Shown: positions 38,500 through 39,510 of the stretch, one piece after another
Layout of the letters: the number at the start of each line of letters is the position of its first letter
Numbering within the stretch: the stretch's first letter is position 1
NCBI RefSeq assembly: GCF_041248615.1
Contig: NZ_CP158426.1
Length of the DNA: 64,000 nt
Reading direction: 5' to 3' (one strand)
Source of the DNA: Escherichia coli
GTDB taxonomy: Bacteria; Pseudomonadota; Gammaproteobacteria; Enterobacterales; Enterobacteriaceae
Program-made: the position numbers and the translations under genes
The notes under the pieces: model-generated
Databases searched by the model: none
The model's input: only the letters and a program-made list of their open reading frames with translations
Told to the model about the DNA's origin: nothing

Positions 38500-39456
38500 A
38501 TGTCATACTCGCTTTTTGACAAAGACGAGCACTGGCATAAGCCAGAGCAGGCGTTTCTCACCGATGACCACCGGACCATTCTGCGCTTCGCCGTAGAGGC
38601 GCTAATGTCCGGTAAAGGAGCGGTGCTGGTGACGCTGGTGGAGATACGCGGCGGCGCGGCGCGCCCGCTCGGGGCGCAGATGGTGGTGCGCGAAGATGGT
38701 CGTTACTGCGGTTTTGTCTCTGGCGGCTGCGTGGAGGCCGCTGCCGCTTTTGAAGCGCTGGAGATGATGGGCTCAGGCCGCGATCGCGAAATTCGCTATG
38801 GTGAAGGTTCGCCGTGGTTTGACATCGTTCTGCCCTGCGGCGGTGGGATCACGCTGACGCTCCATAAACTACGCTCGGCACAGCCTCTGCTCGCCGTGCT
38901 GAACCGCCTGGAACAGAGAAAACCGGCGGGTCTGCGCTACGATCCGCAAGCTCAATCGCTGGTGTGCCTGCCCACGCAAACCCGGACGGGCTGGAATCTC
39001 AATGGCTTTGAGGTGGGGTTCAGACCATGCGTCAGTCTGATGATTTACGGACGTTCTCTTGAGGCGCAGGCAACCGCGAGTCTTGCAGCAGCCACAGGCT
39101 ATGACAGCCATATCTTCGATCTTTTTCCGGCCTCAGCCAGCGCTCAGATCGATACCGATACGGCGGTCATTTTGCTGTGCCATGATCTCAACCGGGAGCT
39201 GCCAGTGTTGCAGGCCGCGCGAGAGGCAAAACCCTTTTATCTCGGCGCATTGGGCAGCTATCGAACCCACACTTTACGTCTGCAAAAGCTCCACGAGCTG
39301 GGATGGTCCAGGGAGGAGACAGCGCAAATCCGGGCACCCGTCGGGATATTCCCCAAAGCCCGGGATGCGCATACTCTGGCACTCTCCGTGCTGGCAGAAG
39401 TCGCCTCTGTACGTCTCCATCAGGAGGAGGATTCATGCCTGCCCCCGTCGTCCTGA
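38500..39456 (+). CDS. paoD: XdhC-like molybdenum-cofactor insertion chaperone for PaoABC
   Basis: 318-aa ORF. Confidence 0.85.
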   Translation: MSYSLFDKDEHWHKPEQAFLTDDHRTILRFAVEALMSGKGAVLVTLVEIRGGAARPLGAQMVVREDGRYCGFVSGGCVEAAAAFEALEMMGSGRDREIRYGEGSPWFDIVLPCGGGITLTLHKLRSAQPLLAVLNRLEQRKPAGLRYDPQAQSLVCLPTQTRTGWNLNGFEVGFRPCVSLMIYGRSLEAQATASLAAATGYDSHIFDLFPASASAQIDTDTAVILLCHDLNRELPVLQAAREAKPFYLGALGSYRTHTLRLQKLHELGWSREETAQIRAPVGIFPKARDAHTLALSVLAEVASVRLHQEEDSCLPPSS

Positions 39457-39510
39457 TCCTTGCGGCCGGGCGTGGAGAGCGCTTTCTCGCCTCCGGGGGA
39501 AATACCCATA
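39435..39510 (+). pseudogene. 5' stub of a MobA/MocA-like molybdenum-cofactor nucleotidyltransferase gene
   Basis: Strong ribosome-binding site (aggagg) plus ATG overlapping the paoD stop; encodes MPAPVVLILAAGRGERFLASGG (glycine-rich nucleotidyltransferase loop), after which similarity is lost. Confidence 0.5.

What the first reader, a model, noticed from the sequence alone, without database searches (positions are those of the whole stretch)
39435..39510. MocA/MobA-like nucleotidyltransferase stub fused to the end of paoD
A strong ribosome-binding site and ATG overlapping the paoD stop encode MPAPVVLILAAGRGERFLASGG, the glycine-rich loop of a molybdenum-cofactor nucleotidyltransferase, but the rest of the gene is missing. 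The PaoABC enzyme uses a cytidylylated molybdenum cofactor, so a dedicated downstream transferase appears to have been deleted and must be supplied from elsewhere.
Basis: partly seen in the sequence, partly recalled or inferred. Interest (0 to 1): 0.4.

Follow-up and report, generated by a model that had tools for sequence, protein, structure and literature searches.

The report
Remnant of a lost pao-operon nucleotidyltransferase gene
The last 22 bases of E. coli paoD overlap the first 27 codons of a MobA/MocA-type nucleotidyltransferase gene that is intact behind paoD in most related enterobacteria; the rest of the gene is absent from every complete E. coli genome searched, so this is an ordinary, decaying gene remnant.

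Summary
A strong Shine-Dalgarno sequence (39422-39431) precedes an ATG at 39435, and the ORF starts MPAPVVLILAAGRGERFLASGGNTHKL.

Generic Pfam and NCBIfam profiles do not detect the 27 residues. Orthology does:
- In 26 of 28 enterobacterial pao loci, a full-length 180-199 aa PF12804 gene starts at this position relative to paoD.
- Its N-terminus is 55-92% identical to the stub in those loci, and 25 of 27 residues match in Enterobacter oligotrophicus.
- DNA homology to the closest intact operon (91%) stops at 39515.

None of 5,426 complete E. coli genomes has more than the first 81 nt. The part beyond 39515 differs between strains:
- 109 aa of unrelated read-through in this window.
- An in-frame chimera with a LysR fragment in K-12, annotated as yagP and made by a secondary deletion between two CATAA copies.
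- A frameshifted 26-codon ORF in O55:H7.

An intact mocA lies about 2.2 Mb away in a genome whose paoD-to-MFS stretch (window 38500-40900) is identical to the window. The literature says MocA hands the cytosine dinucleotide cofactor to PaoD.

Interest is low to moderate: a species-wide pseudogene stub that public protein names do not recognise as transferase-derived.

The parts
34653..38490 (+). paoA (34653-35342), paoB (35339-36295) and paoC (36292-38490): the structural genes of the periplasmic aldehyde oxidoreductase
   Evidence: ORFs. RefSeq annotation of the homologous genome region, 100% identical over 38500-40900.
38500..39456 (+). paoD, the XdhC-family molybdenum cofactor insertion chaperone (318 aa)
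   Evidence: Translation. Pfam XdhC_CoxI and XdhC_C. RefSeq annotation.
39422..39431 (+). Shine-Dalgarno sequence AGGAGGAGGA inside the paoD coding sequence, 4-7 nt before the stub ATG. It is the translational-coupling signal inherited from the ancestral paoD-transferase junction.
   Evidence: Sequence. The same CAGGAGGAGG..TCATG is present in the intact operons of L002 and Enterobacter oligotrophicus.
39435..39515 (+). Transferase stub: the first 27 codons (MPAPVVLILAAGRGERFLASGGNTHKL) of the ancestral fifth pao gene, carrying the LAAGxGxRF nucleotide-binding loop
39516..39764 (+). Non-homologous read-through tail of the stub ORF (82 codons plus stop). It crosses the 3' flank and 3' end of the convergent MFS gene. 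The primary truncation junction is 39515|39516.
   Evidence: Homology to intact genes ends at 39515. The tail has no Pfam or NCBIfam hit. The whole ORF is named 'hypothetical protein' in databases.
39636..40763 (-). MFS transporter gene, a pseudogene in this strain (in-frame TAG at 39852-39854). It is the first gene of the module that replaces the 3' part of the transferase gene.
   Evidence: PGAP note: 'internal stop'. The gene is intact in O55:H7.
40905..43112 (.). Alpha/beta hydrolase (40905-41963, minus strand) and a divergent LysR regulator (42228-43112, plus strand): the rest of the MFS-hydrolase-LysR module
   Evidence: The same trio lies next to paoD-like genes in Pseudoxanthomonas and Frateuria.
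43673..43903 (+). 3' fragment of a second LysR gene. This is the gene whose C-terminal part is fused to the stub in K-12 to give yagP.
44151..44226 (-). tRNA-Thr(CGU), thrW: an island-integration hotspot that bounds the variable region behind the pao operon
   Evidence: The same tRNA-proA neighbourhood lies behind the intact transferase gene in Enterobacter oligotrophicus.

Best explanation
The stub is the non-functional 5' remnant (27 codons) of a fifth pao-operon gene. I call that gene 'paoE' for convenience.

What the intact gene is:
- A short (about 184 aa) MobA/MocA-superfamily nucleotidyltransferase.
- In other Enterobacteriaceae it is translationally coupled to paoD.
- It presumably makes the dinucleotide form of the molybdenum cofactor for PaoABC.

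What happened in E. coli:
- In the E. coli lineage everything after codon 27 was lost. At that point the sequence changes to the 3' flank of an MFS-hydrolase-LysR module, in the variable region next to the thrW tRNA integration hotspot.
- The start codon and ribosome-binding site survive because they lie inside or directly after the paoD coding sequence.
- Ribosomes probably still initiate there and make strain-specific junk or chimeric products: 109 aa in this window, YagP in K-12, and 26 aa in O55:H7.
- The enzymatic step is provided in trans by MocA (ygfJ), encoded about 2 Mb away, which passes the cytosine dinucleotide cofactor to PaoD.

Shown here: the orthology, the truncation point, its presence in every pao-carrying complete E. 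coli genome, decay of the stub, and the presence of mocA.

Inferred: the activity of the intact orthologue, translation of the stub, and whether the loss was a deletion or a replacement.
For: Orthology and position:
- Full-length PF12804 genes lie directly behind or overlapping paoD in 26 enterobacterial loci. Their N-termini are 55-92% identical to the stub.
- Relatives from Enterobacter oligotrophicus and others match 25 of 27 residues and have the same 22-nt overlap with paoD.

Abrupt end of homology:
- Homology with L002 is 91.6% from 34468 to 39515 and then stops (alignments).

Loss across E. coli:
- 0 of 5426 complete genomes match more than nt 1-81 of the intact gene.
- All 3598 pao-carrying genomes have either the MFS-type junction (912 genomes) or the K-12-type junction at 39511.

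Decay of the stub:
- K-12 has Arg15Cys at an invariant Arg.
- O55:H7 has two substitutions and a 1-nt deletion that stops the ORF after 26 codons.
- Three different continuations exist among strains.

The intact gene is functional elsewhere: dN/dS is 0.12-0.19.

Supply in trans:
- mocA is intact in NZ_LT599825.1, whose paoD-to-MFS stretch (window 38500-40900) equals the window, and in 95% of E. coli genomes.
- PaoD receives MCD from MocA (PMC3909100). xdhC-mocA-type gene pairs are known in other bacteria (PMC2997495).
Against: - The 27 residues alone give no significant hit to any curated family, so the assignment rests on synteny and orthologue alignment.
- The intact orthologue is only about 21% identical to E. 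coli MocA, scores 79-85 bits against a 186-bit cut-off for the MocA equivalog model, and lacks about 19 residues present in MocA. Its substrate (CTP, GTP or other) is therefore not established.
- No expression data were available to show whether the stub ORF is translated.
- Other Escherichia species could not be surveyed, so the age of the loss is unknown.
Confidence: 0.92

Rival explanations
1. Chance resemblance: a spurious ORF whose Gly/Ala-rich start happens to look like a nucleotide-binding loop.
For: Pfam gives no hit to PF12804. The best NCBIfam hit is ispD at E = 0.2.
Against: - The same peptide sits at the same position behind paoD in 26 species, as the start of full-length PF12804 genes.
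- The orthologue HMM scores the stub at E 1.7e-9.
- DNA identity of 91% is continuous from paoD into the stub.
Confidence: 0.01
2. The stub-initiated ORF is a functional new gene. It would be either a small protein, or in K-12 the YagP chimera. Alternatively, its translation could matter in cis for paoD or pao mRNA expression or stability.
For: - A strong Shine-Dalgarno sequence and the ATG are retained in all E. coli examined.
- K-12 annotates YagP as a protein.
- The ORF is widely called by gene finders.
Against: - The ribosome-binding site and the first 7 codons are constrained by the overlapping paoD coding sequence, so their retention needs no separate function.
- Downstream sequence and ORF length differ between lineages (109, 136 and 26 codons), with a frameshift in O55:H7 and loss of the invariant Arg in K-12.
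- 27 residues cannot form the transferase fold.
Confidence: 0.05
3. The gene was interrupted by an insertion rather than truncated, and its 3' part survives elsewhere and could be reassembled or expressed separately.
For: The locus lies next to the thrW integration hotspot. Island remnants follow the stub.
Against: blastn at 'distant' sensitivity, using the closest intact gene (88% identical over the stub), finds nothing beyond nt 81 in any of 5426 E. coli genomes. The only HMM hit in the window is the stub.
Confidence: 0.02

Closest known systems
MocA (YgfJ), the CTP:molybdopterin cytidylyltransferase of E. coli
   Same: - Same superfamily (PF12804, MobA-like NTP transferase).
- Same N-terminal xxAAGxxxR loop.
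- Functionally linked to an XdhC-type chaperone, and it is the enzyme that serves PaoD in E. coli (PMC3909100).
   Different: - The intact pao-linked orthologue is only about 21% identical to MocA over 115 residues.
- It is about 19 residues shorter in the first half.
- It scores below the TIGR03310 cut-off.
- The window holds only 27 codons of it.
xdhC-mocA-type gene pairs: B. subtilis pucA-pucB, Arthrobacter pAO1 xdhC-mocA, and an Oligotropha carboxidovorans xdhC-mocA operon
   Same: A chaperone gene and a MocA-like transferase gene lie next to each other or are co-transcribed (PMC2997495). This is the arrangement seen in the intact enterobacterial and rhizobial pao loci.
   Different: In E. 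coli the transferase partner has been reduced to a stub. The literature describes paoD as the last gene of the operon (PMC3909100).
yagP (b0282) of E. coli K-12, annotated 'putative LysR family substrate binding domain-containing protein'
   Same: It starts at the identical ATG. Its first 26 residues are this stub.
   Different: - In K-12 a secondary deletion between CATAA in the stub and CATAAG in a full-length LysR gene (still intact in O55:H7) fused the stub in frame to the LysR C-terminal part.
- The window strain keeps the MFS-hydrolase-LysR module instead.
- None of the source names retrieved mentions the transferase origin.
MobA, the molybdopterin guanylyltransferase
   Same: Same fold family. 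Weak NCBIfam hits of the intact orthologues to MobA models.
   Different: Much weaker similarity than to the MocA and PucB models. Not linked to XdhC-type chaperones.

Membership tests
PF12804 NTP_transf_3 (MobA-like NTP transferase) | Significant match to the Pfam profile (gathering score 27 bits) | tested here: not met
   The stub alone (27 aa) and the 109-aa ORF give no hit at E <= 10. The full-length orthologues score 83-94 bits. The stub is therefore a fragment of a member, not a member.
Pao-linked short nucleotidyltransferase (orthologous group behind paoD) | Position directly after or overlapping paoD on the same strand, with a coupled start | tested here: met
   The 22-nt overlap is identical to that in L002 and Enterobacter oligotrophicus.
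Pao-linked short nucleotidyltransferase (orthologous group behind paoD) | Sequence match to the group profile | tested here: met
   HMM of 35 full-length members: 36.3 bits, E 1.7e-9, covering the N-terminus only. Identity to the N-termini is 55-92% in the enterobacterial loci and 25 of 27 residues in Enterobacter oligotrophicus and two close relatives.
Pao-linked short nucleotidyltransferase (orthologous group behind paoD) | Full-length coding sequence (about 180-199 aa) including the GMGxSI, LPADLPL, GHPV and DIDT motifs | tested here: not met
   Only residues 1-27 are present. Homology ends at 39515. No E. coli genome has the rest.
MocA equivalog (NCBIfam TIGR03310) | Score above the curated cut-off of 186.45 bits | tested here: not met
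   The intact enterobacterial orthologues score 79-85 bits and the rhizobial one 136 bits. The stub gives no hit.
MocA equivalog (NCBIfam TIGR03310) | CTP-specific Mo-MPT cytidylyltransferase activity | not testable with these tools
   This needs an enzyme assay of an intact orthologue.
Pseudogene / gene remnant | Truncated relative to intact orthologues, with lineage-specific disabling changes and no conserved product | tested here: met
   The truncation is at codon 27. O55:H7 has a frameshift. K-12 has Arg15Cys at the invariant Arg. There are three different ORF continuations.

The most novel reading that the evidence does not exclude
Translation still starts at the inherited coupled start site and matters. 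Either the stub-initiated products have acquired a role (the 109-aa ORF here, the in-frame transferase-loop/LysR-effector-domain chimera YagP in K-12), or ribosome loading at this site tunes paoD or pao mRNA expression. In addition, the intact 'paoE' of other enterobacteria would be a dedicated, structurally reduced dinucleotide transferase whose loss forced E. coli PaoD to adapt to MocA.
Probability: 0.07. Interest if true: 0.45.

Novelty: new member of a known kind. Interest (0 to 1): 0.25.

Why it matters
It corrects the picture of a model operon.
- E. coli paoABCD is a five-gene operon that lost its last gene.
- The dependence of PaoABC maturation on the distant MocA is a derived state.
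- K-12 yagP is an accidental in-frame chimera of a transferase stub and a LysR fragment, not a LysR-family gene with its own start.

It also points to an uncharacterised, conserved, short MobA/MocA-like protein in Enterobacter, Leclercia, Cronobacter, Citrobacter, some Salmonella and other genera. This protein is the natural candidate for a dedicated cofactor transferase for PaoABC.

The biological consequences in E. coli itself are probably nil.

Tried and rejected
- Pfam and NCBIfam scans of the 27-aa stub and the 109-aa ORF gave nothing significant. Generic profiles cannot settle a match this short.
- An Rfam scan of 39200-39900 gave no match.
- The promoter and terminator scan of 39200-39900 found none.
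- Folding of 39500-39640 on both strands gave z-scores of -1.3 and -1.1, which is unremarkable. A weak hairpin at about 39567-39592, followed by a T-run on the minus strand, may terminate the MFS gene. It did not meet the scan's criteria.
- I searched the window for the K-12 junction sequence. It is absent. This first suggested that neither arrangement derives from the other. O55:H7, which holds the full-length second LysR gene, resolved the question.
- tRNA scans of the related loci, made to test a 'transferase gene abuts thrW' idea, found only a half-tRNA copy in Leclercia and a full thrW 8.6 kb downstream in Enterobacter oligotrophicus.
- The literature search for 'yagP' found nothing relevant. 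The primary MocA paper (PMC2755913) is not held.
- The paoD-stop to transferase-start distances computed are unreliable for about 6 loci, because of HSP frame or start-codon choice. I use only the clear 1-22 nt overlaps.

Full report
**What is in the sequence**

The window is E. coli chromosome. The stretch 38500-40900 is 100% identical to several complete genomes, for example NZ_LT599825.1. The region reads ecpE-ykgJ-yagU-paoABCD, followed by an MFS transporter pseudogene, an alpha/beta hydrolase, a LysR regulator, gene fragments, tRNA-Thr (thrW), proA and proB.

paoD occupies 38500-39456. At 39435 there is an ATG preceded by AGGAGGAGGA (39422-39431). It lies 19 nt before the paoD stop codon and in a different frame.

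Three details differ from the finding:
- The ORF overlaps paoD; it is not fused to it.
- The ORF continues to 39764 (109 aa), reading across the 3' flank and 3' end of the convergent MFS gene.
- The part with homologues is 39435-39515, that is 27 codons.

**Is it more than chance?**

On its own the peptide is too short. Pfam gives no hit to PF12804, and the best NCBIfam hit is ispD at E = 0.2. The decisive evidence is comparative.

- A scan of one genome per bacterial species with PaoD returned 80 loci.
- In 26 of the 28 enterobacterial loci (all except two Erwinia), tblastn finds the stub peptide directly behind or overlapping paoD, at 55-92% identity. These genera include Leclercia, Enterobacter, Silvania, Franconibacter, Siccibacter, Citrobacter, Cedecea, Dryocola, Atlantibacter, Kosakonia and Pseudocitrobacter.
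- In every one of these loci it is the start of a complete 180-199 aa ORF.
- The five ORFs tested, four enterobacterial and one rhizobial, hit PF12804 (MobA-like NTP transferase): E 4e-23 to 2e-26 for the enterobacterial ones and 1e-36 for the rhizobial one.
- An HMM built from 35 of the full-length proteins scores the window's ORF at 36 bits, E 1.7e-9. This is its only hit in the 64 kb.
- Even closer full-length relatives exist in the large protein collection, for example in Enterobacter oligotrophicus and Salmonella enterica. The first 27 residues of P0004, P0005 and P0008 match the stub at 25 of 27 positions.
- In E. oligotrophicus the gene overlaps paoD by the same 22 nt.

**Where the gene ends**

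DNA homology between the window and the closest intact operon (L002) is 91.6% from 34468, about 185 nt upstream of paoA, to exactly 39515. There is no homology on either side. Alignments show collinearity through ...ACC CAT AAA TTA and unrelated sequence afterwards. The primary junction is therefore 39515|39516. To its right lies the 3' flank of the MFS gene.

**Distribution in E. coli**

- 3598 of 5426 complete genomes carry this paoD region.
- None has more than nt 1-81 of the intact transferase gene at blastn sensitivity.
- There are two junction types. In 912 genomes, including this window, O157:H7 and O145, the stub is followed by the MFS module. In about 2690 genomes, including K-12 and BL21, homology to the window ends at 39511.

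**K-12 yagP**

In K-12 the annotated gene yagP (b0282) starts at this very ATG. It encodes 26 stub residues followed by a LysR C-terminal domain.

O55:H7 strain DEC5A preserves the fullest layout: paoD, stub, an intact MFS gene, hydrolase, LysR-1, a ykgR fragment, a hypothetical gene, an SDR oxidoreductase, a full-length LysR-2, and then a P4-like element. LysR-2 contains ...AATCATAAGTGTATCGGC.... The stub contains ...ACCCATAAATTA. The K-12 junction reads ACCCATAAGTGTATCGGC.

K-12 yagP therefore arose by a secondary deletion between two CATAA copies. The copies happened to be in the same frame, which produced an in-frame chimera. The window strain instead lost the 5' part of LysR-2 and keeps a 231-nt 3' fragment at 43673-43903.

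**Decay of the stub**

- K-12 has Arg15Cys at an Arg that is invariant in the family alignment.
- O55:H7 has Glu14Lys, Ala19Thr and a 1-nt deletion that ends the ORF after 26 codons.
- The three lineages thus encode 109-, 136- and 26-codon products with nothing in common beyond the stub.
- By contrast, the intact gene evolves under purifying selection in other genera, with dN/dS of 0.12-0.19 in six pairs.
- The retained ribosome-binding site and first seven codons lie inside paoD, so their conservation needs no function of their own.

**How the cofactor step is covered**

PaoABC carries the molybdopterin cytosine dinucleotide cofactor. PaoD is reported to interact with MocA and receive MCD from it. 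[quoted passage not shown] Pairs of xdhC-like and mocA-like genes are known in other bacteria: pucA-pucB, Arthrobacter pAO1 and Oligotropha (PMC2997495).

mocA is intact at 1067978-1068556 of NZ_LT599825.1, the genome whose paoD-to-MFS stretch (window 38500-40900) is identical to the window. It is present in 5169 of 5426 E. coli genomes.

**What the lost gene was**

The intact orthologue belongs to PF12804. Its best NCBIfam matches are the MocA, DVU_1551 and PucB models, but at 79-85 bits it is far below the MocA equivalog cut-off of 186. It is about 21% identical to E. coli MocA over 115 residues and lacks about 19 residues of the N-terminal half that MocA and the rhizobial homologues have. 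Its nearest solved relative is a mycobacterial MobA/MocA-related protein at E 3e-4.

That it is a Mo-MPT cytidylyltransferase is therefore an inference from family and operon context. It is not shown.

**Why there**

In E. oligotrophicus the intact gene is followed by a variable stretch with defence-type genes and an integrase fragment, then tRNA-Thr(CGU) and proA. This is the same chromosomal neighbourhood as in E. coli, where thrW is at 44151-44226. In Leclercia a 55-nt copy of the thrW 3' half sits immediately after the intact gene's stop.

The transferase gene is thus the last core gene before a tRNA integration hotspot. Its 3' part was most likely lost in a rearrangement of that variable region. 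Whether that was a plain deletion or a replacement by the incoming MFS-hydrolase-LysR module cannot be decided.

**Novelty and verdict**

- None of the source names retrieved for these ORFs mentions a transferase origin. The 109-aa ORF is named 'hypothetical protein', or by transfer 'LysR-type regulator'. YagP is named a LysR substrate-binding-domain protein.
- I found no paper describing the remnant.
- It is nevertheless an ordinary kind of object: a pseudogene stub of a known superfamily, left at the edge of a hotspot.
- It is of modest interest for molybdenum cofactor specialists and for the annotation of yagP.

Noticed in passing
window 39636-40763 (minus strand); stop at 39852-39854: The MFS transporter gene behind the stub carries an in-frame TAG in this strain (PGAP note: 'internal stop'). 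It is intact in O55:H7 DEC5A.
   Followed up: partly
window 39636-43112; L027 5958-9581; L035 3-4848; L052 2-4847: The MFS / alpha-beta hydrolase / divergent LysR trio also lies directly next to paoD-like genes in Frateuria and Pseudoxanthomonas. The MFS proteins are 61-71% identical, and hydrolase and LysR about 40-42%. In Pseudoxanthomonas the order is MFS-hydrolase-LysR-paoD-paoABC. This suggests the trio is functionally linked to pao-type oxidoreductases, or travels with them, rather than being random island DNA.
   Followed up: partly
window 43962-44018 and 44082-44138: A 57-nt direct repeat (89% identity, spacing 120 nt) lies just before thrW. The otherwise identical genome NZ_LT599825.1 appears to have one copy fewer: its tRNA position is offset by 120 nt. 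The same sequence follows yagP in K-12, about 70 nt before the annotated CP4-6 prophage boundary. These are possibly attachment-site remnants.
   Followed up: no
L082 4382-4792 (K-12 yagP); L089 8440-9339: K-12 yagP is an in-frame chimera of the transferase stub and the C-terminal 110 residues of a LysR regulator that is still full-length in O55:H7, O145 and O157. The join lies at a CATAA microhomology.
   Followed up: yes
L003 6418-6470: In Leclercia adecarboxylata a 55-nt copy of the 3' half of tRNA-Thr (93% identical to window 44142-44196) lies immediately after the stop of the intact transferase gene. No complete tRNA lies within the locus. This looks like the distal repeat of an island integrated at thrW.
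   Followed up: partly
L010 and L017 (Erwinia): These two pao loci have no transferase gene and no recognisable stub. A LysR gene on the opposite strand follows paoD directly. This would be an independent absence of the fifth gene.
   Followed up: no
window 17182-18799; L002 9323-10940: A second stretch of the Pluralibacter-labelled MAG contig is 86.8% identical to a part of the window about 16 kb upstream of pao. In the MAG it lies about 3 kb downstream of the pao operon, so gene order differs.
   Followed up: no
alignment A2, columns about 42-60: The enterobacterial pao-linked transferases lack about 19 residues that E. coli MocA and the rhizobial pao-linked homologues have in the N-terminal half. 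They are nevertheless under purifying selection. They are a structurally reduced subfamily with no characterised member that I could find.
   Followed up: partly
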